Shown: positions 3,919-55,600 of the stretch, piece by piece
Numbering within the stretch: the first letter of the stretch is position 1
Layout of the letters: each line of letters begins with the position of its first letter
Assembly: GCA_034180415.1 (NCBI GenBank)
Contig: JAXFOK010000015.1
Span: 2,205 to 66,204 of the forward strand
Length of the DNA: 64,000 nt
DNA from: Bdellovibrionota bacterium
GTDB taxonomy: Bacteria; Bdellovibrionota_C; UBA2361; CAKMMH01
Reading direction: 5' to 3'
Notes under the pieces: model-generated
Told to the model about the DNA's origin: nothing
Databases searched by the model: none
The model's input: only the letters and a program-made list of their open reading frames with translations
Translations under genes and position numbers: made by a program

Positions 3919-4734
3919 TTGTATAAAGGATTTTTGTTTATGAATAAAAAAAATATTATAGAAAATAATAATGTCGATATAAAAAAAACAAATGAACCAC
4001 AATCAGAAATTGAAATAACATTTGTTGAAGATCCTTTATTTAGATTTTTTAAAAAATGGCAGAATGTTATTTTCTGGGGTCTTGTTGTTATAATTGCTTG
4101 CTATTTTGGTTATAATAAATATTCTGATATTAGAATAAATGAACAAAAAAGTGATGCAGATTTATTTGAAGAGTTTAGACCTATATACGCAAATATTATT
4201 ACCTTAAGTAAGGATATTAAGCAAAAAGAGTTAGAAATTCAAAAAGATACTAATGAGAAGAAAGATACTAAAGGAAAAGAAAAAGATTTAAATGAGCTAA
4301 AAGAACGTTTAACAAAATCATTAAGTGAGGCACAAAGTCGTATTAAGCCATTAGCTACAAGTAAATATTATAGCACTATTTCTAAGTTGTATTCTGCTTT
4401 ATTAAAGAAAAATGCAGGAGACCAAAAAGGTTTTGAAGAAGATATAAATAAAATAGATTTTAATAATTATAAAAATGAAAGTAATGAACAATCAAGATTT
4501 TACAAGGAGCTAGCGAGTATTATTATTGCAAAGGCCTACTTAGATGATGAAACGAAAATTTCAAATGCTAAAGAACTACTAACTAATTTAATAAAAGATG
4601 GTAAATATTTTAACGTGGTAGCTTTTAATACATTGTCAATAATTGCTAAAGGTGAGGAAGAAGAAGCGCTTAAGAAGTTAAAAGAAGAGTTGTTGAGTAA
4701 GGCTCCTGAACAATCTGAACTATTAAAAAATTAG
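3919..4734 (+). CDS. Membrane-anchored coiled-coil/TPR-like protein (possibly a YfgM-like translocon-associated protein)
   Basis: Single N-proximal transmembrane segment (VIFWGLVVIIACYFGY) followed by a charged helical region. The family assignment is tentative. Confidence 0.4.
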   Translation: MYKGFLFMNKKNIIENNNVDIKKTNEPQSEIEITFVEDPLFRFFKKWQNVIFWGLVVIIACYFGYNKYSDIRINEQKSDADLFEEFRPIYANIITLSKDIKQKELEIQKDTNEKKDTKGKEKDLNELKERLTKSLSEAQSRIKPLATSKYYSTISKLYSALLKKNAGDQKGFEEDINKIDFNNYKNESNEQSRFYKELASIIIAKAYLDDETKISNAKELLTNLIKDGKYFNVVAFNTLSIIAKGEEEEALKKLKEELLSKAPEQSELLKN

Positions 4735-4852
4735 TGATGTATCCAAGATTGCTTTGTTATATTAAGGGGGGGCAATGCTCATCGTAGCATGAGTACGCTT
4801 CCGATTGCCCCCCTTAAAATGCCACGCACTCTTGGCGTCTCACTAATTTTTT
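4735..4852. repeat. Family-A palindromic element (single copy) immediately after the stop codon of 3919..4734
   Basis: The 5' module gatgtatccaagattgc and 3' module aaatgccacgcactcttggcgtctcactaatttt match the family-A termini. The internal 14-bp inverted repeat is ttaagggggggcaat...attgccccccttaa. Confidence 0.65.
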
Positions 4853-4892
4853 AATCGCCAATGCATCTAAGATAACTATCAAAAGTTTATAT

Positions 4893-21003: not shown

Positions 21004-21388
21004 AAAATTGACGATGCATCCAAGATTGCGTCGTTATTCGAGAGAGATGCCGTCCTCGCTGTACTTAATAGTACAGCTGTGGGTGCATCCTCTCGAATGC
21101 CTAGCACTCTTGGCGCCTCGTCAATTTTATATATTAAGACGATGCATGTGATGATGCTACGTTCATTTTGAGGGATAAACGGTCCTTGCTGTACTTAATA
21201 GTACAGCTGTGGGAGCATCCTCCCGAATGCCTAGCACTCTTGGCGCCTCGTCAATTTTATATATTAAGACGATGCATGTGATGATGCTACGTTCATTTTG
21301 AGGGATAAACGGTCCTTGCTGTACTAATCGTACAGCTGTGGGAGCATCCTCTCGAATGCCTAGCACTCTTGGTGCCTCGTCAATTTTA
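21004..21388. repeat. Tandem array of three family-A palindromic elements (units about 121 nt)
   Basis: Copy 1 is 21004–21128. Copies 2 and 3 (21129–21249, 21250–21388) form a 121-nt direct repeat (atattaagacgatgcatgtgatgatgc...). Each has a central hairpin gctgtacttaatagtacagc and a 3' module gaatgcctagcactcttggcgcctcgtcaatttt. Termini are inverted complements. The ORF 21163..21408 is a repeat artefact. Confidence 0.8.
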
Positions 21389-21514
21389 TAAAATGGACCT
21401 TTTAACAACCCCTAAAAGGTAAAAGTTTTAATGGGTTGGTGCGTAATTAAAGTTTGCTGTGAAAAATTTCGATATTGAGTATAGGTTGGATTATATTTTT
21501 TTAAGTTTTAAGCT

Positions 21515-39356: not shown

Positions 39357-39730
39357 AAAATTGGCGATGCATCGCGAAGATTGTTGCGTTATTTGAATGT
39401 AAGTCTTGCTAGCTGTACAAAAGTACAGCGTCGCTTCGAGTTCATTCAAATGCCTTGCACTCTTCGCGCCTCGCCAATTTTTTATAGGCAAAGAGAAGAG
39501 AAAGATTTTGGCGATGCATCGCGAAGATTGCTGCGTTATTTGAATGTAAGTCTTGCTAGCTGTACAAAAGTACAGCGTCGCTTCGAGTTCACTTAAATGC
39601 CTTGCACTCTTCGCGCCTCGCCAATTTTTTATAGGCAAAGAGAAGAGAAAGATTTTAGCGATGCATCGCGAAGATCGCTGGTTATTTGAATTTAACTCTT
39701 GCTAGCTGTACAAAAGTACTGCTACATACC
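39357..39730. repeat. Tandem array of family-A palindromic elements (two full units of about 149 nt plus a truncated third)
   Basis: Each unit is aaaattggcgatgcatcgcgaagattg ... gctgtacaaaagtacagcg ... caaatgccttgcactcttcgcgcctcgccaatttttt, separated by the spacer ggcaaagagaagagaaagatt. The termini are inverted complements. ORFs 39231..39638 and 39381..39596 are repeat artefacts. Confidence 0.8.
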
Positions 39731-47581: not shown

Positions 47582-48457
47582 CTATAAGAAAATTTTCTTA
47601 AATTTGTTGTTTTTGCTCTCAACGTGCTCATTTGGAGCAAAAATTTTCTTTAAATTTTCAAAACGAAGGATATTCGGGTCTTCCTTTGATAGATAAGAAA
47701 TGACATCACCTAGGCTTCTTCCTAGCAAAAATTTAGGCAAATATTCATATTTTACGCACTCATAGACGTATTCTGAGGCTATTCTTGATGATTGACTAAT
47801 AGCCCTATCTAAATGAAGTGCTATATGAAAACTTGTTACTTTTGGATTATAACGCTCTAAACTTATTGAAAATTCTTCCCCAGAAACGGAGGCTAGGGCC
47901 TTTAATCTTAATATCTTCATAGTAATTTTAGGGTCAGGTTGCCTAAATCTGTCAAGTACGTGTTCAGTTGGTCTTAAAACCTTATTGTAAAGATCAGTTA
48001 AACATGAAATCGTAAAATATATAGAATTATTTAGGATAAGTATTTCATTTATTGTGATATCTCTTGTTTGAAAATACTTTTCGGTACTTTCTAAAACTTC
48101 TATTCCGTGTCCATGTTTAGAATCATCTTTCATAAAAGCAAGTTCTAGCTCTTTGTCGATTTTTGATGTTTTTTTATCACCAAATCTAACAATATCAATA
48201 TCTCTTGGGCGTCTAAATGAAAAATTGTAATTTAACGCAAATCCTAGTGCTAATCTTGCGGCTCCTCCTTTAAAACCGTATTGAGGGGGAATTGTTGGGA
48301 GTAAATCAATTTGAGGAAGTTTTATTGATAAAATGTTATCTACAAATGACTCGAATTTTACTTTTGGTGCTAATTTTAAAATATCATTAGGTATATTTAA
48401 AAAATTGTAAGATTGCTTTATTAGTTTGATTTTATTAATATTTTCGTTTTGACTCAT
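47582..48457 (-). CDS. Putative nucleotidyltransferase-fold protein (pol-beta / minimal NTase-like)
   Basis: FKGGAARLALGF ... RRPRDIDIVRF fits the G[GS]-(x)n-[DE]h[DE]h pattern of pol-beta-superfamily NTases. A third acidic residue is possible in ...RDITINE. The exact family (CD-NTase/SMODS-like, MNT, other) cannot be decided by eye. Confidence 0.35.
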   Translation of the reverse strand: MSQNENINKIKLIKQSYNFLNIPNDILKLAPKVKFESFVDNILSIKLPQIDLLPTIPPQYGFKGGAARLALGFALNYNFSFRRPRDIDIVRFGDKKTSKIDKELELAFMKDDSKHGHGIEVLESTEKYFQTRDITINEILILNNSIYFTISCLTDLYNKVLRPTEHVLDRFRQPDPKITMKILRLKALASVSGEEFSISLERYNPKVTSFHIALHLDRAISQSSRIASEYVYECVKYEYLPKFLLGRSLGDVISYLSKEDPNILRFENLKKIFAPNEHVESKNNKFKKIFL

Positions 48458-48625: not shown

Positions 48626-48811
48626 ATGGCTAATAATAAAAATCAAATTAAATTTAATGGTAGCGAATATGCATGGAATGGAAATTTTTGGTATGATACT
48701 AAGACTTTTATGATTCCTTCTACAATTATTGCTGAAAACTTAACAAGAGAGCTTAGCAAAAAGCTTGGTGTTAAACCAAATATTGTGATTGAAAATAATC
48801 ATGCTCAATAA
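48626..48811 (+). CDS. Small hypothetical protein (61 aa)
   Basis: Good RBS aaaggagaactcttATG. Trp/Asn-rich. No motif. Confidence 0.3.
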   Translation: MANNKNQIKFNGSEYAWNGNFWYDTKTFMIPSTIIAENLTRELSKKLGVKPNIVIENNHAQ

Positions 48812-49336
48812 TTAAATGTATGCTTAGTTCCTTTAAAAATGTTTATATGTAAGATTTTTAAAGGAATCTAGGTCTAATATTCATAATTCTTTAAATTCAT
48901 ATAAGTCTGCTTCATGTCTCTTTAACACTAATAATTTCATATTCGTTTCATGTTAGTTTTATAATATTTATTAAATTTCACATCATAACAATTTGTAGTT
49001 ATATTTTTATTTTTGTTTTTAGAATTTAATAATGTGGTAGAAAAATGCCCAATTAACATATAACAAATGATAATTTTTGCAAAACAAAGAAGCTAGCTTG
49101 TCCAGTTGCTACGCAATCAATAGTTCTTGTCTCACATCATTTTAATTCATTTGAAAATATAAGGGAAAGTTTCATTAATATTAATAAAATGATTAAAAGT
49201 TTATTAATAAAAACGAAATTTGAAAATGTTGATATGCAATTAGAAATTTTAGAAAAAGGGGATATTCGCAAGATTCGATAAAACAATATTATCTGATGCA
49301 TAAAAAAATACTTTAGAAACATTATTTAAAAATAAT

Positions 49337-49687
49337 ATGTTAAAGTTAGCTGTAATAAGAAAAGTTGCAGGTTTTGTGAAAGCAAGATTTGGTAAAAAAG
49401 AGTTAATAGATATCTTAACTGACAAAGATGTTAATAAAAATATAGAAAATTCAATGAAAGTATTATTGATAAAAGGTAATTTAAATGAATTGTCAAATCT
49501 TATTGAAACGTTAAAGAAAAGTGGTGTTAAAGTAGAAGTTATATTAAATGGGTTAAAAAATGTTTCAAAAGGCGTAATAAATTATTTAATTGATAATTAT
49601 GATGAAAATCAGTTAAAAAAAAATTCTATGTTTTCTGGGGGCAGATCGTTTGTCAGAGAAGGATTCATTAATTATATTAAAAGATAG
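49337..49687 (+). CDS. Hypothetical protein (116 aa)
   Basis: ORF in an otherwise gene-poor AT-rich stretch. No motif. Confidence 0.3.
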   Translation: MLKLAVIRKVAGFVKARFGKKELIDILTDKDVNKNIENSMKVLLIKGNLNELSNLIETLKKSGVKVEVILNGLKNVSKGVINYLIDNYDENQLKKNSMFSGGRSFVREGFINYIKR

Positions 49688-50049
49688 TGAAGTCTAAAGT
49701 AAAATCATTAATACTATTTAAAAAATGTTGGTAATAATATAAGACAATAAAAAGATGATTTGCATTTAGGAAAATATAATTACAATAAAGCAAGTATGAA
49801 TTCTTTAATAGCTTTAAATAATATTTTAAAAAGCTATTTTGATGAACAAGAAATAGCAGAGATGATGGTATAGCTTGATATTGATTATCATAAAATAATT
49901 TATATAATATCATGTATTTTAAAAGACTAAATATTTAAGATTTAAGGTTTTTAATAATATTTTAATAAGTTTCCATTGTGATATAAGAAGTTGTTTCATT
50001 GTTTTTTCCTTGATTGATTTATATTTTTTAGGCTACCTTAATCTTTTTC

Positions 50050-50094
50050 TAAGTAGCGTTAAGGTATTTTTATAAAAGATATCTTAACGCTACT
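50050..50094. promoter_or_regulatory. Perfect 13-bp inverted repeat (operator-like) about 55 nt upstream of the 50150 gene, with a -10-like tataaa in the spacer
   Basis: aagtagcgttaag-gtatttttataaaagatat-cttaacgctactt. The arms are exact reverse complements. GC content of the arms is well above the local background. Confidence 0.5.
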
Positions 50095-50149
50095 TACAAC
50101 AGGGTAAGATAGCAAAAAAAATTCCCGAAAAATAAATAAAGGAATAAAA

Positions 50150-50656
50150 ATGAAACACTATAATTTCTCTTGGCGTATCAGCGATACTAATTCGGGTAAG
50201 CAAGTTCTTTCGCCGATTTCTGCTGAGGATAGGGAGTATAATCCATTAACTGACATCGCAGTACAAGGAGATGCGCTAACGCTTAAAACCCGTTCGGAGC
50301 TTAAGTGCTTTGAATATGACGAAGATAAAACTTTTCATGACATGAGTGAGACGCTTAGCCTGTCTTTGCCGATCGATAAATTTGCGGTACAGTTTTTTAA
50401 TAACCGTGCGAAAATTAAAGCGGCGAAAGATAGGACGAAAAGGGCGCTCTTAACGCTTACTCTTCCTGGTAATGCCAAAATTTATAGGGCTAACAATGTC
50501 CTTATTAAATTTTATAGGGGCATTTACCTTTACTTTGCCGCCATCATGAATGATGGCGATGAAGTAAAGGTTGCCTTTAATAATGAAGATGGAGCAAAGC
50601 TCAAACTTCGCACGTACGCCTTCAAAGATGGGTGTATGAATATCTACAATAATTAA
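50150..50656 (+). CDS. Hypothetical protein (168 aa) encoded by a compositionally anomalous (about 42% GC) gene; likely horizontally acquired
   Basis: Codon usage is GC-richer than all neighbours (gcg, ccg, cgc, ggc codons are frequent). No motif recognised. Preceded by an operator-like IR and followed by a GC-rich structured element. Confidence 0.5.
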   Translation: MKHYNFSWRISDTNSGKQVLSPISAEDREYNPLTDIAVQGDALTLKTRSELKCFEYDEDKTFHDMSETLSLSLPIDKFAVQFFNNRAKIKAAKDRTKRALLTLTLPGNAKIYRANNVLIKFYRGIYLYFAAIMNDGDEVKVAFNNEDGAKLKLRTYAFKDGCMNIYNN

Positions 50657-50889
50657 GGTTTTATACCTTAGACCTATCAATCACATGAGGGAAGGTCTTT
50701 TTAACAAGGTTTTCTCTCATAATATTTTTAATCAATGAATTCTACACTCAATATAAATTTGTATCCTACGTTGTGTTATTAAGATTGTTAACTTTCAAGA
50801 ATTGTTTTTAAGAAACTTGTATCAAATGAAAAAATGAATTAAAGAATAAAGATTTTTAAGTTAATAAGAAAAAGAAAGAAGAAAGATTG

Positions 50890-51092
50890 AGAAAGCCTTC
50901 TCAATAACTTCCTAACCCCAATCAGTAATAACTTCATGGGGCTAGGTGAGTCGGAGGGAGGGCTTTAGTCTTCTTTAGTTCCCCCTTGTAGTTGAAGAAC
51001 TAGGAGGTCTATAGCATCCTCTTTTTGAACCAACAGCGGGGCTAGATATCTATCTGCGCCCCACAGGCAGCCTGAAGTCGGCTGCTATTTTT
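50890..51092 (+). ncRNA. Candidate small RNA (about 200 nt, 47% GC) ending in an intrinsic terminator
   Basis: GC-rich island without an ORF. Hairpins ggggctagatatctatctgcgcccc and gcagcc-tgaagtc-ggctgc followed by tattttt (plus-strand Rho-independent terminator). Located 230 nt after the 50150 gene and 185 nt before the Fic gene. Confidence 0.35.
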
Positions 51093-51275
51093 AAGATTAT
51101 ATGTAAGATTCTGATGTTGTTTTAAATTTTTTTAGTTGCCCCATAATAAGGCCTTAATATTAATAAAATTAAAGGAGTAATGTTTCATGTATTTATTTCC
51201 TTTTGTCCTCATAAAACTTTTCATGTATAATACAACCTGGTGTTATCTTAGAATTTAAATATATTATTTGTTATT

Positions 51276-52463
51276 ATGGATAAAAAAAAGAAAAGTAATA
51301 TTAAAAATTTAACTACCGATCCATTTAAAGAATATCTAAAAGTTAAAAATCCTAGTAAAGAAGAAAAGGTTTATGCTTGGCAAACAGCTATAGGCCTTCA
51401 AGATGTTGATGGACTTTCAGTTTCAAAATATTTGTTAAGTGTTGCAAAAGAAAATATCGATGGAATTATTAATCTAAATGAGGCTAAAAAACGTATAGAT
51501 TCATATTATGAAGAAGTAACACATCGTAAACTTGAAACTACAAAAGAGTCTGATAAAGTTTCTGTAAGGATTACTAAAATTCTTGGAGAAAAGTCTTTTG
51601 TTTTTTCACCTTCGCAATATATTTCAATTCATAGACGTTTGTTTCAAGGAGTTTATAAGCATGCTGGAAAAGTTAGAAAATATGATATATTAAAAAAAGA
51701 ATGGATATTAAACGGTGCTTCCATTATCTATGGTGGTAAAAAAGAGCTTATGGAAACTCTTGAATATGATTTTAAAGTTGAGAAGGAATTTTGTTATAAA
51801 AATTTAACAAAAAATAAAATGATAACTCATCTTGCGCGTTTTATAGCAAACTTATGGCAAATACATATTTTTGAAGAAGGAAATACTCGAACAACAGCTG
51901 TATTTTTAATTAAATATCTTAAGTTCTTGGGATTTAATGTAACTAATGATATCTTTGCCAAGAATGCATGGTATTTTAGAAATGCACTTGTTAGGGCAAT
52001 TTATAAAGATGCTTCTAAAGGAATTTTTGAAGATTTATCATTTCTAGAATTATTTTTAAGAAACCTAATATTAAATGAAAAGAATGTATTAAAAAATAGA
52101 TATTTACATTTAAATTGGAAAAATAAAGATAACAAAAAACAGCACAAAAAACAGCACAATAAACAGCACATTGAAAATGGAAAAATAGAAGATTTAAAAG
52201 GAAAATCTAAGGCTTCTTGTAATAAAAAGCTTCAAAATACTTTAGAAAAAAATATGCTTTCTGATAAGACAAGTAAAAATATCTTGAAACTTTATAATGA
52301 ATTTCAGAATAAAAAGATATTTTCGAGAAAAGATATTATGGCTATTCTTAATATTACACAAAGACCTGCATCAACTCTTATTAAAAAAATGTATTTATTA
52401 AAATTTATAGATAAAGTTCATGGGGCAGGAAAGGGCAAATATAAGTTTTATAAATTAAATTAG
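51276..52463 (+). CDS. Fic/Fido-family protein with a non-canonical active-site motif and a C-terminal winged-helix domain
   Basis: The Fic motif is present as HIFEEGNTRTTA, against canonical HxFx(D/E)GNGRxxR: G to T at position 8 and no terminal Arg. Low-complexity KQHKKQHNKQH repeat. C-terminal wHTH-like ...ILNITQRPASTLIKKMYLLKFID... Confidence 0.7.
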   Translation: MDKKKKSNIKNLTTDPFKEYLKVKNPSKEEKVYAWQTAIGLQDVDGLSVSKYLLSVAKENIDGIINLNEAKKRIDSYYEEVTHRKLETTKESDKVSVRITKILGEKSFVFSPSQYISIHRRLFQGVYKHAGKVRKYDILKKEWILNGASIIYGGKKELMETLEYDFKVEKEFCYKNLTKNKMITHLARFIANLWQIHIFEEGNTRTTAVFLIKYLKFLGFNVTNDIFAKNAWYFRNALVRAIYKDASKGIFEDLSFLELFLRNLILNEKNVLKNRYLHLNWKNKDNKKQHKKQHNKQHIENGKIEDLKGKSKASCNKKLQNTLEKNMLSDKTSKNILKLYNEFQNKKIFSRKDIMAILNITQRPASTLIKKMYLLKFIDKVHGAGKGKYKFYKLN

Positions 52464-52548
52464 TAATTGCCATAAGTAATTTATTAAATATGTAAAGAGA
52501 TAGCTATCTTATTTTGAGATGATTAACCGTCGAAAACAGGAAAATACA

Positions 52549-52605
52549 AAAAAAGCACGAAAAACTTAACCTTTGTTTAAGCCTTACTTTTCGTGCTTTT
52601 TTTTT
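52549..52605. terminator. Bidirectional intrinsic terminator between the convergent Fic (+) and PFOR (-) genes
   Basis: aaaaaagcacgaaaa...cttttcgtgcttttttttt: an 11-bp stem flanked by an A-run on one side and a T-run on the other. Confidence 0.6.
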
Positions 52606-52614
52606 GCATATAAA

Positions 52615-52646
52615 ACGATGATAAATTTAAAAATTCATCATCGTTT
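52615..52646 (-). terminator. Hairpin immediately after the PFOR stop codon
   Basis: aacgatgat-aaatttaaaaatt-catcatcgtt, about 10-bp stem. Confidence 0.4.
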
Positions 52647-52653
52647 CTATATC

Positions 52654-55600
52654 CTATAAATTAGCAAGCTTCTTATAATAATCATATCTTGCGTTAACAT
52701 TCTCTTGAGCAATCTTAGCAAGTTCTTCTGCACGCTCAGGATTAGATTTAACAAGCATCTTATAACGGTTCTCACCGTAAATATAATCTGAAAGTGGAAT
52801 ACTTGGTTCTTTTGAATCAAGTGTAAGAGGGTTTTTACCTTCTTTAGCATTTTCTGGATTATATCTGTAAAGAAGCCAGTGTCCAGAATTTACCGCTTTC
52901 TTTTGTTCATTTAATCCATTTCTTAAGTCAATACCATGAGCAATACAGTGAGCATAACAAATGATTAATGATGGTCCATCATAGTTTTCAGCTTCAAGTA
53001 AAGCCTTAACTGCATGAGCATCATTTGCACCAAGTGAAATGCTTGCAACATATACATTCTTATAACTCATTGCATGAAGTCCAATGTCTTTCTTGCCTGT
53101 TGATTTACCAGCAGCAGCAAATTGAGCAACAGCACCTGTTGGAGTTGACTTAGACATCTGTCCTCCTGTATTTGAATATACTTCAGTATCAAGAAGTAAT
53201 ACATTTACATTTTGTCCAGAAGCAAGCACGTGGTCTAATCCACCGTATCCAATATCGTATGCCCAACCATCACCTCCAAAGATCCAAACGCTTTTCTTAA
53301 CAAGATAATCAGCAAGAGATACAAGCTCTAAAGCTTCATCGCTAGAATCGTTCTTTAACGCATCTTTTAACTTAGCAACTCTTTCTCTTTGAGCATTGAT
53401 TTCTTCCTCTGTGCTTTGAGAAGCAGTAAGAATTTCTTCTACTAAAGCGCTTCCTGCTTTATCTTTTAAAGCTTCAAGAAGTTCTTTTGCTTGAGCGTTT
53501 TTCTTATCTACTGTTAATCTAAATCCTAGACCAAACTCTGCGTTATCTTCAAATAGAGAGTTTGCCCAAGCAGGACCTCGTCCATCTTTGTTCTTAGCAT
53601 AAGGAGTAGTAGGTAAGTTACCACCATAAATAGAAGAACAACCTGTTGCATTTGCTACAAGCATTCTGTCACCAAAAAGCTGAGTTACAAGTTTGATGTA
53701 TGGAGTTTCACCGCAACCTTGGCAAGCCCCAGAGAACTCAAATAATGGTTCAAGAAGTTGTGAACCTTTGACAGTGTTGTGCTGAACTTTATTTCTATCA
53801 GTGTAATCAATAGTGTTAAAGAAATCCCAACATTCTACTTCTTGCTTTCTAATTGGTTCAAATGGTACAAAGTTAAGAGCTTTACCGCCTTCAACTTTCT
53901 TACTCTTAGCAGGGCAGTTTTCTACGCATAGTCCACAACCTGTGCAGTCTTCACATGAAAGTTGTAAAGTAAACTTAGTTCCCTCTGGGAATGTCTTATC
54001 TTTAATATCAGCAGACTTAAATCCAGCTGGTGCATTTTTTAGTTTATCTTCACTATATGCTTTCATTCTTATTACAGCGTGAGGACAAACTATTGAACAC
54101 TTACCACATTGAATACAAGTTTCTGGATCCCACTCTGGAACTGAAAGTGCAATAGCTCTCTTTTCCCATTTTGTTGTTGCACTTGGGAATGTACCATCTG
54201 CAGGAAGGTCGCTAGTTTTTAAGCTTTCGCCTTCAAACGCCATCATTGGAGCAATTACTTTCTTTACGAACTCTGGAGCTTTGTCTGATACAACTTGACG
54301 TCTTGTAATTGTGCTTGTAACTTGTTTTGGATAATCAATCTTATGTAAGTGTACAAGGCTTTCATCAACAACTTTGTAGTTCTTTTGAACGACTTCATCA
54401 CCTTTCTTACCAAAAGTCTTTTTGATTGCAGCTTTAATTTTTTCAATAGCTTCATCTTTTGGTAAGATATTTGCAATTGCAAAGAAACAAGTTTGCATGA
54501 TTGTATTTGTTCTTGTACCCATTCCATTTTTAAGTGCTACATCATAAGCATTAATTGAATAGAATTGAATATCCTTATCAATTATTTCTTGTTGAAGCTC
54601 ACGAGGAAGTTTATCCCAAACTTCATCTGCTTCATATGGAGCATTTAACAAGAAAGTTGCACCTTTTGCAGCTTCTTTTAGTACGTCTAGTTTTTCAACA
54701 AAACTAAATTGGTGACAAGCAACAAAGTTTGCATGATCAATTAAATAAATTGATCTAATCTTGTTTTTACCAAAACGAAGGTGAGACTTTGTAAGACCTC
54801 CAGATTTCTTTGAGTCATATACAAAGTATCCTTGAGTGTAGTTGTCAGTTTCGTTACCGATAATCTTAATAGAGTTTTTGTTAGCACCAACTGTACCATC
54901 AGAACCAAGACCAATGAAAATACCTCTAAATGTGCTTTCATCTTCAGTTCTAAAGTTAGGGTCATAAGTTAAGCTAGTGTTTGTTAAGTCATCTGTGATA
55001 CCAACAGTAAAGTGATTCTTAGGAGTATCTTTCTTAAGTTCATCAAATACTGCTTTAATCATAGCAGGTGTGAATTCTTTTGAAGATAGACCGTAACGAC
55101 CACCGATGATTTTTACTTTTCTATCAGTTTCTGCAAACGCAGCAACTGTGTCTAAGTAAAGAGGTTCACCTAAGGAGCCAGCTTCTTTTGTTCTATCTAA
55201 AACTGCGATGCTCTTAACAGTTGTAGGGATTGCGTCAATAAAATCTTTAACGCTAAATGGTCTAAATAGATGTACTTTTAATACACCAACTTTTTCGCCC
55301 ATTTTTGAAGACATGTAATCTACGACTTCTTCAGTTGTCTCTGCACCAGATCCCATAAGAATTAAAATTCTTTCAGCATCTTTTGCTCCATAGTAATCGT
55401 AAAGGTCATAATGACGTCCTGTAACTTTCTCAAGTTTTTTCATTGCTTCTTTTACAATCTCTGGAGTTTTTTGATAATAAACGTTTGCTGCTTCTCTTGA
55501 TTGGAAGAATACGTCAGCGTTTTGTGCAGTACCACGAATAAATGGTCTATCAGGAGATAAACCTCTTTCTCTATGAGCTATAACATCTTTAATATCAATT

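What the first reader, a model, noticed from the sequence alone, without database searches (positions are those of the whole stretch)
50050..50656. Compositionally foreign gene (about 42% GC in a 30% GC genome) guarded by a perfect 13-bp operator-like inverted repeat
The 168-aa ORF uses GC-rich codons unlike any neighbour. That is a classic signature of recent horizontal acquisition. Its promoter region carries aagtagcgttaag-N19-cttaacgctactt with a -10-like tataaa inside the spacer, which is the geometry of a dimeric repressor site overlapping a promoter. The flanking DNA (48.8–50.1 kb) is gene-poor and AT-rich, consistent with a decaying accessory island.
Basis: seen in the sequence. Interest (0 to 1): 0.55.

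Follow-up and report, generated by a model that had tools for sequence, protein, structure and literature searches.

The report
Structured mRNA leader locking an orphan gene
The GC-rich gene and its perfect inverted repeat are real, but the repeat is most likely the tip of a long folded mRNA leader that hides the gene's ribosome-binding site, not a repressor site on a promoter, and it precedes every copy of a small orphan gene family found only in uncultured gut Bdellovibrionota.

Summary
Both observations hold. The 168-aa ORF (50150-50656) has the highest GC3 of 49 ORFs in the window: 0.41 against 0.18 +/- 0.05. The inverted repeat has perfect 14-bp arms and occurs once in 64 kb.

- The 'tataaa' -10 is not conserved.
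- A near-consensus sigma-70 promoter (TTGAyT-N16-TAnnnT) lies 109-161 nt upstream of the repeat in all 10 family modules found. The repeat is therefore probably transcribed.
- Six stem pairs show compensatory changes. Every one-sided change is a G.U pair on the sense strand.
- The sense strand folds 4-12 kcal/mol better than the antisense strand in 9 of 9 copies.
- The repeat tops a ~170-nt predicted hairpin whose base pairs with the Shine-Dalgarno sequence and the AUG. Cognate 5' and 3' arms fit best in 1 of 720 permutations.

The family is not a recent arrival. Paralogs of 30-44% identity carry the same leader, and a related species holds one at the same variable locus. The GC excess stops at the start and stop codons, and it comes mostly from a loss of third-position A.

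Best reading: a translationally locked leader, possibly opened by RNase III. Protein function is unknown. This is a new cis-regulatory RNA motif of a known mechanistic kind. It rests on computation only.

The parts
49881..49908 (+). Sigma-70-type promoter TTGATT-N16-TATAAT. The predicted transcription start is near 49915.
   Evidence: Listed by the promoter scan with 10 of 12 matches. One equivalent TTGAyT-N16-TAnnn[T/A] site lies 109-161 nt upstream of the palindrome in each of the 10 modules (and in the strain copy L003). The loose pattern occurs only 9 times per strand in 64 kb.
49915..50149 (+). Predicted 5' untranslated leader of about 235 nt, 14-26% GC.
   Evidence: Inferred from the promoter position.
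49989..50159 (+). Long, nearly continuous leader hairpin that contains all the elements listed below.
   Evidence: MFE -55.1 kcal/mol, z -8.5, 0 of 200 shuffles as good. The same architecture is predicted for 10 modules.
49992..49999 (+). Anti-start element UGUUUCAU. It pairs with AUGAAACA at 50150-50157.
   Evidence: P(AUG paired with the 5' arm) is 1.00, against 0.56 for shuffled 5' flanks; 2 of 100 shuffles reach it.
50004..50011 (+). Anti-Shine-Dalgarno element UUUUCCUU. It pairs with AAAGGAA.
50032..50043 (+). 5' strand of the middle helix, GCUACCUUAAUC. It contains an inverted copy of the motif TAAGTAGC.
   Evidence: Paired with 50102-50113 in the MFE and centroid structures.
50050..50096 (+). 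The perfect 14-bp arms are 50050-50063 and 50083-50096, inside a 22-bp stem with a 3-nt loop.
   Evidence: Across 9 copies, 97% of cells pair, 6 pairs change on both sides, and 0 of 500 shuffles reach this. The covariance model scores 80.5 bits on + and 55 bits on -.
50102..50113 (+). 3' strand of the middle helix, the conserved box GGGUAAGAUAGC.
   Evidence: Conserved in the upstream alignment. Paired in the fold.
50138..50144 (+). Shine-Dalgarno sequence AAAGGAA, 6 nt before the ATG. It is sequestered in the basal helix.
   Evidence: Sequence. Pairing.
50150..50656 (+). CDS of the 168-aa orphan protein. NCBI lists it as hypothetical protein MDY6090004.1, locus tag SPJ04_01970, from a Bdellovibrionota MAG.
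   Evidence: No Pfam, NCBIfam, PHROG, PADLOC or PDB match.
50685..50720 (+). Intrinsic terminator of the gene: a 15-pair stem followed by AATATTTTTA.
   Evidence: The stem shows compensatory changes in L001.
48814..52654 (.). Variable chromosomal island between a conserved 61-aa gene and the pyruvate:ferredoxin oxidoreductase gene.
   Evidence: A BLASTN comparison of the window with L030 shows that only the flanks and the 48-bp palindrome are shared. Gene content differs between the two.

Best explanation
The inverted repeat is the apex of a conserved, structured 5' leader RNA. It is not a DNA operator.

Proposed mechanism
- Transcription starts from a near-consensus sigma-70 promoter at 49881-49908, about 240 nt upstream of the ATG.
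- The leader folds into one long hairpin (49989-50159).
- Its top is the sequence-conserved 22-bp stem.
- Its middle tier pairs GCUACCUUAAUC with GGGUAAGAUAGC.
- Its base pairs an anti-SD (UUUUCCUU) and an anti-start (UGUUUCAU) with the Shine-Dalgarno sequence and the AUG.
- The mRNA is therefore made in a translationally closed form.
- Expression needs something that opens or cuts the hairpin. The most economical candidate is RNase III cleavage of the long perfect duplex, as in E. coli adhE and lambda cIII. A factor that recognises the invariant apex sequence is an alternative.

Context
- Promoter, leader, gene and terminator form one module.
- The module is repeated for every paralog of a small, fast-evolving family of mostly-beta orphan proteins. 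The family is known only from uncultured gut Bdellovibrionota.
- The modules sit in a variable chromosomal island next to a candidate defence gene.
- Copies are gained and lost by recombination between the repeated leaders.

Shown by computation: the promoter conservation, the compensatory and G.U-only changes, the sense-strand bias and the co-variation of the two arms.
Inferred: that the region is transcribed, that the lock works, and what opens it.
For: 1. One TTGAyT-N16-TAnnnT promoter lies 109-161 nt upstream of the palindrome in all 10 modules, about 6 of which are independent (for the window).
2. Apex helix over 9 copies: 97.1% of cells pair. Six pairs change on both sides (for example G-C to A-U and C-G to U-A in L051). 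No shuffle of 500 reaches this, and slid controls pair in only 36-50% of cells.
3. All one-sided changes are G.U or U.G on the sense strand, with no A.C. One U.G pair is invariant.
4. The sense strand folds 4.4-12 kcal/mol better than the antisense strand in 9 of 9 copies. The covariance model scores 15-26 bits higher on the + strand.
5. Loop length varies from 3 nt to about 23 nt while the stem is kept.
6. The MFE folds of the window, L030, L051 and L001 leaders all give a single long hairpin that pairs the SD and/or AUG with upstream leader sequence, although the sequences differ.
7. Native 5' flanks fold 1.5-3.9 sd better than shuffled flanks in 10 of 10 modules.
8. In chimeras of 5' and 3' arms from 6 independent modules, the cognate assignment is the best of 720 permutations: -116 against a mean of -81 kcal/mol.
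9. Between the window and the related species L030, the palindrome is the only part of the island still alignable. It is 94% identical, against 82-92% for the conserved flanks.
10. Precedent: RBS occlusion relieved by RNase III in adhE and lambda cIII (PMC5371410).
Against: - There are no expression data. The transcription start is predicted, not mapped.
- Background U-rich/A-rich complementarity already gives substantial SD/AUG pairing in shuffled controls (control P 0.1-0.76). Per-module significance is therefore modest, and two modules show no excess for the AUG.
- RNAalifold on a plain MAFFT alignment supports only the apex, because the outer arms do not align.
- The near-invariant stem sequence (9 of 19 outer pairs never vary) exceeds what a purely structural RNA helix or RNase III needs. 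It would fit sequence-specific recognition, including of duplex DNA.
- In one module (L051_next) the right arm plus a TAGAAT box makes a good promoter, TTAACA-N17-TAGAAT.
- RNase III was neither looked for nor tested.
Confidence: 0.6

Rival explanations
1. Duplex-DNA operator(s). A sequence-specific regulator binds the palindrome, or two adjacent palindromes of the type GCTACyTTA-N8-TAAGnTAGC at 50032-50057 and 50089-50113. It represses or activates all family members as one regulon. The complementarity of the arms then reflects two-fold protein symmetry.
For: - The stem sequence is nearly invariant across paralogs whose synonymous sites are saturated.
- The motif TAAGTAGC occurs four times in alternating orientation.
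- The right arm (TTAACG/TTAACA) followed by a TAAGAT/TAGAAT box 15-17 nt later resembles a weak -35/-10 pair. It scores 10 of 12 in L051_next.
- The extra 19-20 nt in the long-loop variants is close to two helical turns.
Against: - All one-sided changes are G.U on the sense strand, and the sense strand folds better in 9 of 9 copies. A duplex site predicts no such bias.
- Two palindrome variants, each internally compensated, coexist in one genome (L051). That is awkward for a single regulator.
- The centre between the half-sites is also self-complementary and conserved.
- Complementarity extends about 60 nt further on each side, to the SD and AUG, and co-varies.
- A much better conserved promoter lies upstream.
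- No DNA-binding protein gene was detected in the island.
Confidence: 0.17
2. Recombination site. The hairpin, folded as single-stranded DNA, is recognised by a recombinase or HUH-type enzyme that moves or swaps the gene modules. Comparable cases are integron attC sites and IS200/IS605 ends.
For: - There is module presence/absence polymorphism. L001 and L002 carry an extra 181-aa paralog, and the window looks like a crossover product within the repeated leader.
- A one-strand (top-strand) folding bias is also what an ssDNA site would show.
- The locus is a variable island.
Against: - The hairpin occurs only 5' of family genes, at a fixed distance from the ATG. It never follows the last module or flanks non-family genes such as the 96-aa ORF or Fic.
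- The attC outer boxes RYYYAAC...GTTRRRY are absent.
- No hairpin of the same kind lies at the 3' end. That end carries an ordinary terminator.
- No integrase, transposase or Rep hit was found among the ORFs scanned.
- The family stays at one chromosomal locus in two species.
- The gain and loss of modules is explained by ordinary homologous recombination between 100-300-bp repeats.
Confidence: 0.06
3. The composition reflects recent horizontal transfer from a GC-richer donor. The palindrome came in with the gene.
For: - GC3 is 0.41 against 0.18, and CpG observed/expected is 1.35 against 0.70.
- The location is a variable island beside a candidate defence gene.
- Other small island genes in L030 are also GC3-rich, at 0.31-0.49.
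Against: - No homolog exists outside this lineage among 1.84 billion cluster representatives, 185,579 species genomes or IMG/VR.
- The GC excess starts at the ATG and ends within 50 nt of the stop. The promoter, leader and 3' flank are host-like.
- The same leader precedes paralogs of 30-44% identity, including one with nearly host-like GC3 of 0.23.
- A family member occupies the same locus in a species whose flanks are 82-92% identical.
- The bias is a loss of third-position A only. T3 is unchanged and the two-fold codons are host-like, which a simply GC-richer donor does not predict.
Confidence: 0.15

Closest known systems
RNase III-activated, RBS-occluding 5' leaders (E. coli adhE; phage lambda cIII)
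   Same: A long 5' UTR whose secondary structure hides the ribosome-binding site. It contains a double-stranded segment long enough (22 bp) to be an RNase III substrate, and cleavage would free the SD (PMC5371410; folds).
   Different: - There is no sequence or Rfam relationship.
- The apex here is a perfect, sequence-invariant palindrome shared by a whole paralog family.
- Cleavage and activation are untested.
Fold-back inhibition and long-range SD sequestration in mobile or toxic genes (IS10 transposase 'fbi', hok and other type I toxin mRNAs). Recalled from memory.
   Same: An upstream segment complementary to the translation start keeps the full-length transcript translationally inert. Such elements are typical of genes whose leaky expression is harmful. 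The setting here is an accessory island.
   Different: - The product is a 168-aa soluble, mostly-beta protein, not a small hydrophobic peptide or a transposase.
- No antisense RNA is evident.
- The small mirrored ORF on the minus strand is not conserved in other modules, from reading.
   Same: Two-fold symmetric, sequence-conserved DNA upstream of a set of genes. CTTAC...GTAAG sub-motifs are present.
   Different: - The spacing is N6-N8, not N3.
- The site lies more than 100 nt downstream of the conserved promoter.
- It shows a strand-specific G.U bias.
Integron attC sites and gene cassettes
   Same: An imperfect inverted repeat that folds on one strand, lying beside small genes of unknown function and odd composition in a variable array.
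   Different: - It lies 5' of the gene, and only next to one protein family.
- It has no R''/R' consensus.
- No integrase was found.
- Each gene has its own promoter.

Membership tests
   The 'tataaa' in the spacer is replaced by TTTTTTTTAAAAAAG, TTTTTAAAAAAG or a 20-nt longer loop in other modules. The conserved promoter lies 109-161 nt upstream.
   All one-sided changes are G.U on the sense strand and none is A.C. The sense fold is better in 9 of 9 copies.
RBS-occluding leader opened by RNase III (adhE/cIII type) | SD and start codon base-paired within the 5' UTR | tested here: met
   This holds in silico only. The SD and/or the AUG is paired with the 5' arm in the MFE of all 10 modules. Cognate arms are the best of 720 permutations.
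RBS-occluding leader opened by RNase III (adhE/cIII type) | A double-stranded RNA segment of about 20 bp or more that RNase III can cut | tested here: met
   A 22-bp stem (26 bp in L030a) with only G.U irregularities.
RBS-occluding leader opened by RNase III (adhE/cIII type) | Translation depends on cleavage | not testable with these tools
   This needs in vitro cleavage and reporter assays, or mapping of processed 5' ends.
Any described RNA family (Rfam 15) | A match at the family's gathering score | tested here: not met
   No match at gathering threshold in the whole window. At E up to 1, the only matches are generic miRNA-precursor hairpin models far below threshold.
Integron gene cassette / attC | R'' RYYYAAC and R' GTTRRRY at the outer ends of the imperfect repeat | tested here: not met
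   GTTAAGG and TCTTAAC lie inside the arms, in the opposite order, and miss the consensus.
Integron gene cassette / attC | The site follows cassettes of any kind, and an integron integrase is nearby | tested here: not met
   The site is found only 5' of family genes. No integrase hit was found among the ORFs scanned, but not every ORF in the window was scanned.
Type I toxin-antitoxin | A small hydrophobic toxin peptide (under about 60 aa) plus an antisense RNA | tested here: not met
   The product is 168 aa, with no hydrophobic stretch apparent on inspection of the sequence, and is predicted to be mostly beta-strand. No antisense promoter or conserved minus-strand ORF was seen.
LexA (SOS) box of Bdellovibrio bacteriovorus | TTAC-N3-GTAA | tested here: not met
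   The motif is taken from PMC8565304. Here the form is CTTAC-N6-GTAAG, or CTTA-N8-TAAG. The LexA motif of this distant lineage is unknown.
Recently acquired genomic island | Atypical composition of the whole inserted segment, with mobility genes, a tRNA or flanking repeats, and absence from relatives | tested here: not met
   - The atypical composition is limited to the CDS.
- There is no tRNA and no mobility gene was seen.
- The family is present at the same locus in L030.
Known protein families (Pfam, NCBIfam, PHROGs, PADLOC, PDB) | A significant profile or fold match | tested here: not met
   No hit in any library. The AlphaFold models are weak (pLDDT 46 and 55) and Foldseek finds nothing with E below 0.03.

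The most novel reading that the evidence does not exclude
The module may be a new kind of 'locked effector'. The orphan beta-rich proteins would be harmful or defence-related effectors, kept silent by a sequence-specific leader lock. A dedicated trigger would recognise the invariant apex shared by all paralogs. Candidate triggers are a phage- or prey-derived factor, a dsRNA-binding protein, or regulated RNase III. The strand-specific loss of third-position A, with NCG, AGG and ATC codons replacing NCA, AGA and ATA, would be a second, codon-level gate, or the trace of a strand-specific editing or mutagenic process acting on these genes.
Probability: 0.12. Interest if true: 0.7.

Novelty: new variant of a known kind. 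Interest (0 to 1): 0.45.

Why it matters
If the model is right, this is an undescribed cis-regulatory RNA motif. It consists of a promoter and a ~235-nt leader with a perfect 22-bp apex that hides the RBS. The motif is conserved better than the proteins it controls, in a poorly known group of uncultured gut and rumen Bdellovibrionota.

It gives a concrete, testable example of post-transcriptional silencing of accessory-island genes. It also attaches a recognisable nucleic-acid signature to a protein family that has no annotation.

It is a cautionary case as well. A 'foreign-looking' gene with an 'operator-like' palindrome turned out to be a resident, lineage-specific family with an RNA-level element.

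The A-specific codon recoding confined to the CDS is unexplained and may be of interest in its own right.

Tried and rejected
Searches that found nothing
- Homology and fold. Pfam, NCBIfam, PHROGs, PADLOC and PDB sequence searches, and Foldseek against PDB and BFVD with two weak AlphaFold models, gave nothing usable.
- Family members elsewhere. None in GTDB species genomes or in IMG/VR. A third profile search added no members.
- Palindrome pattern in JGI metagenomes. It gave 16 loci, all unrelated long hairpins that share the 11-mer, and none encodes the family.
- A looser palindrome pattern in IMG/VR. It gave only non-palindromic chance matches.
- Organism by PFOR. The best hits were 65% identical (Anaerolineae), which is uninformative. 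The organism came instead from an exact protein look-up: a Bdellovibrionota MAG.
- Rfam. Nothing at gathering threshold, and only generic miRNA hairpin models at permissive E-values.
- RNAalifold on a MAFFT alignment of whole leaders. It recovered only the apex, because the outer arms do not align. I used per-module folds, flank shuffles and a cognate/non-cognate chimera test instead.

Explanations considered and rejected
- Intrinsic terminator or insulator: there is no U-tract on either strand.
- Invertible promoter: the spacer of 3-25 nt is too short.
- IS200/IS605 ends or a MITE: there is no matching 3' hairpin and no transposase.
- Leader-peptide attenuation: no conserved upstream ORF.
- A minus-strand 26-aa ORF mirrored upstream of the palindrome. 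It is not conserved, and it is an expected by-product of anti-SD and anti-AUG complementarity.
- LexA box: the spacing is wrong.
- Non-coding RNA instead of a CDS: rejected because indels are in frame and dN/dS is 0.3-0.4.
Full report
OBSERVATION

The ORF at 50150-50656 (+, 168 aa) has GC 0.398 and GC3 0.414. The window is 29.9% GC, and its 49 ORFs of at least 100 aa have a mean GC3 of 0.182 (sd 0.051). This ORF is the most extreme of them. CpG is also enriched: observed/expected 1.35 against 0.70, and 53 against 15 CG per kb.

The inverted repeat is TAAGTAGCGTTAAG at 50050-50063 with its exact complement at 50083-50096. The 19-nt spacer is itself self-complementary. The element is therefore a 22-bp stem with two G.U pairs and a 3-nt loop (RNA fold z -7.8).

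The repeat is not generic. With up to 3 mismatches, only chance-level matches occur elsewhere in the 64 kb. A covariance model of the hairpin scores 80.5 bits here and at most 17.5 bits anywhere else in the window.

THE GENE

It is a real protein-coding gene.
- Homologs differ by indels of 3 or 6 nt only.
- dN/dS among the closest alleles is 0.3-0.4.

It has no match in Pfam, NCBIfam, PHROGs, PADLOC or PDB sequences. Two AlphaFold runs gave only weak models, with pLDDT 46 and 55. They are mostly beta-strand, and only the C-terminal half reaches 63-78. Foldseek found nothing significant.

An exact look-up identifies the protein as 'hypothetical protein' MDY6090004.1 (SPJ04_01970) of an uncultured Bdellovibrionota MAG. 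A second record labels the organism Pseudomonadota. Neighbouring housekeeping proteins come from the same MAG.

The family is tiny. A word-indexed search of 5.8 billion proteins found alleles of 76-98% identity. An exhaustive HMMER profile search of 1.84 billion cluster representatives, plus a second word-indexed search with the enlarged alignment, added paralogs of 30-44% identity (P0006, P0007, P0008, P0010). All come from ENA or Logan metagenome assemblies. Nothing was found in 185,579 species genomes or in IMG/VR.

CONTEXT

Contig L030 (23 kb) comes from a related species. It shares the window's flanks:
- the 251-aa, 291-aa and 61-aa genes on one side, at 82% nucleotide identity;
- PFOR, FKBP and RNHCP on the other side, at 92%.

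Between those flanks nothing aligns except the 48-bp palindrome, at 94%.

The window's island (48814-52654) holds a 116-aa ORF, the 168-aa gene and a Fic protein. The Fic protein matches the PADLOC candidate defence family PDC-S72 at E 5e-157. The L030 island holds an RCC1-repeat giant protein, other small genes, a 185-aa family member and a disrupted third member.

L001 and L002 are the same species as the window; their upstream DNA is 97% identical. They carry an extra 181-aa paralog in front of the ortholog of the window gene. The window looks like the product of a crossover within the repeated leader.

No tRNA gene was found in the window, and the ORFs scanned gave no integrase, transposase or reverse transcriptase hit. 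Most of the surrounding genes that gave a Pfam hit are housekeeping, such as MutS, ClpB, DnaJ and PFOR.

THE PALINDROME GOES WITH THE FAMILY

The same element lies 55-75 nt upstream of the ATG of every family member found. This includes paralogs whose synonymous sites are saturated against the window gene. It is absent from non-family genes in the same islands.

Over nine copies:
- 97% of stem cells pair.
- Six pairs carry changes on both sides. The clearest are G-C to A-U and C-G to U-A in the two L051 modules.
- No shuffle of 500 reaches this, and slid controls pair in only 36-50% of cells.

DNA OPERATOR OR RNA HAIRPIN?

Four lines of evidence favour RNA.

1. A conserved promoter lies upstream. 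Every module instead has exactly one near-consensus promoter, TTGACT (TTGATT in the window)-N16-TATAAT/TAAAAT/TAGAAT. It lies 109-161 nt upstream of the palindrome and 225-281 nt upstream of the ATG. In the window it is at 49881-49908. The loose pattern occurs only 9 times per strand in 64 kb.

2. The changes are strand-specific. All one-sided changes in the stem are G.U or U.G on the sense strand, and none is A.C. One U.G pair is invariant. The sense strand folds 4.4-12 kcal/mol better than the antisense strand in 9 of 9 copies. The covariance model scores 15-26 bits higher on the + strand.

3. The loop varies from 3 nt to about 23 nt while the stem is kept.

4. Complementarity extends far beyond the palindrome. 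In the window, 49989-50159 folds into one long hairpin (MFE -55 kcal/mol, z -8.5). In it:
   - GCUACCUUAAUC (50032-50043) pairs with the conserved box GGGUAAGAUAGC (50102-50113);
   - UUUUCCUU (50004-50011) pairs with the SD AAAGGAA (50138-50144);
   - UGUUUCAU (49992-49999) pairs with AUGAAACA (50150-50157).

The leaders of L030, L051 and L001 differ in sequence but fold the same way. In each, the SD and/or AUG is paired to upstream leader sequence.

Controls for the outer arms are as follows.
- The 5' arm is U-rich and the 3' arm A-rich, so shuffled 5' flanks already give appreciable pairing. Single-module significance is modest.
- Native flanks still beat shuffles by 1.5-3.9 sd in 10 of 10 modules.
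- When the 5' and 3' arms of six independent modules are recombined in silico, the cognate assignment is the single best of 720 permutations.
- RNAalifold on a plain alignment recovers only the apex, because the outer arms do not align.

MECHANISM (INFERRED)

The gene is transcribed from its own strong promoter with a ~235-nt leader. The leader closes on the ribosome-binding site, so the mRNA is translationally locked by default.

A perfect 22-bp duplex is a natural RNase III substrate. RNase III cleavage that unmasks an occluded RBS is established for E. coli adhE and lambda cIII (PMC5371410). That is my preferred opening mechanism, at roughly 25% as a sub-claim.

The near-invariance of the apex sequence is not explained by structure or by RNase III alone. 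The same is true of the alternating arrangement of the motif TAAGTAGC at 50032-50040, 50050-50057, 50089-50096 and 50105-50113. Both suggest a sequence-specific partner. This is also the main point in favour of the operator rival.

COMPOSITION

The GC excess begins at the ATG and is gone within about 50 nt of the stop. The promoter, leader and 3' flank are 14-26% GC.

The excess is mostly a loss of A at third positions.

| Third-position base | Gene | Background |
|---|---|---|
| A | 0.17 | 0.39 |
| T | 0.41 | 0.44 |
| G | 0.23 | 0.10 |
| C | 0.19 | 0.07 |

- NCA, AGA, ATA and TTA codons are avoided.
- NCG, AGG, ATC and CTT codons are preferred.
- The two-fold A/T-ending codons remain host-like.

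Paralogs show the same tendency more weakly, and P0006 is nearly host-like with GC3 0.23.

Three points argue against recent transfer of a DNA segment from a GC-richer donor: the shared leader, the conserved locus and the absence of any homolog elsewhere. The cause of the recoding remains unexplained.

The coding sequence also diverges faster between strains than its 3' flank: 85.5% against 91.6% identity between the window and L001. This is consistent with a fast-evolving, recombining family.

COMPARISON WITH KNOWN SYSTEMS

The element works like RBS-occluding leaders (adhE and cIII; and, from memory, IS10 fold-back inhibition and type I toxin mRNAs). It belongs to no described RNA family. 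It fails the defining tests for each of these:
- a promoter-overlapping operator;
- an integron attC site;
- an IS200/IS605 end;
- a type I toxin-antitoxin locus;
- the Bdellovibrio LexA box, TTAC-N3-GTAA (PMC8565304).

VERDICT

The palindrome is a gene-specific regulatory element in a variable island. It is most likely an RNA element in a transcribed leader, and the gene is not a recent import.
- The finding is a new, lineage-restricted cis-regulatory leader motif attached to an orphan protein family. The mechanistic class is known and the motif itself is undescribed.
- All functional claims are computational.
- Interest is moderate (0.45).

Noticed in passing
window 21052-21390 and 39361-39719 (partial copies at 546-648 and 4727-4853): GC-rich (~42%) intergenic tandem repeats of 130 nt x2.6 and 147 nt x2.4. 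The two arrays are 67% alike. Each unit holds a hairpin of the form GCTGTAC...GTACAGC. There is no Rfam match. They look like a genome-wide structured repeat family.
   Followed up: partly
window 50875-51100: GC-rich non-coding stretch between the 168-aa gene and the Fic gene. It folds strongly (-80 kcal/mol, z -3.9) and ends in an intrinsic terminator at 51066-51086. There is no Rfam match. It is absent from L001 and L003. It may be a small RNA or a leader of the Fic gene.
   Followed up: partly
window 50793-50879 and 52041-52129: An 88-bp direct repeat at 79% identity. One copy lies downstream of the 168-aa gene and the other inside the 3' part of the Fic gene. The strain variant L003 lacks exactly the interval between them, which removes the GC-rich element and the 5' two thirds of Fic.
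   Followed up: partly
window 51276-52463: The neighbouring 395-aa Fic-domain protein matches the PADLOC candidate defence family PDC-S72 almost end to end (E 5e-157). It contains a 12-nt tandem repeat (ACAAAAAACAGC x3.2) at 52132-52170 that encodes KQH repeats.
   Followed up: partly
window 50150-50656: The codon bias is strand-asymmetric. Third-position A falls from 0.39 to 0.17 while T stays at 0.41. NCG, AGG and ATC codons replace NCA, AGA and ATA. The same holds in the allelic copies in L001, L002 and L004, and it is weaker in paralogs. This is unexplained.
   Followed up: partly
L030 9223-12308 (related species, same locus): A cluster of small GC3-rich genes of unknown function: 131 aa on the minus strand with GC3 0.49, a 96-aa gene, and a family member split into 55-aa and 99-aa ORFs that still carries the leader hairpin. 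Upstream lie a 1323-aa RCC1-repeat protein and a 669-aa protein that are absent from the window.
   Followed up: no
window 47582-48457 (minus strand) and 48626-48811: A 291-aa protein and a 61-aa protein border the island and are conserved in the related species. Neither has any family match. The 291-aa sequence contains a GG..R...DIDIV motif reminiscent of nucleotidyltransferases; this is by eye only.
   Followed up: no
P0005 (ENA contig, 145 aa): A chimeric family variant. The first 98 residues are 89% identical to the window protein and are followed by an unrelated C-terminus. This suggests recombination or truncation within the family.
   Followed up: no
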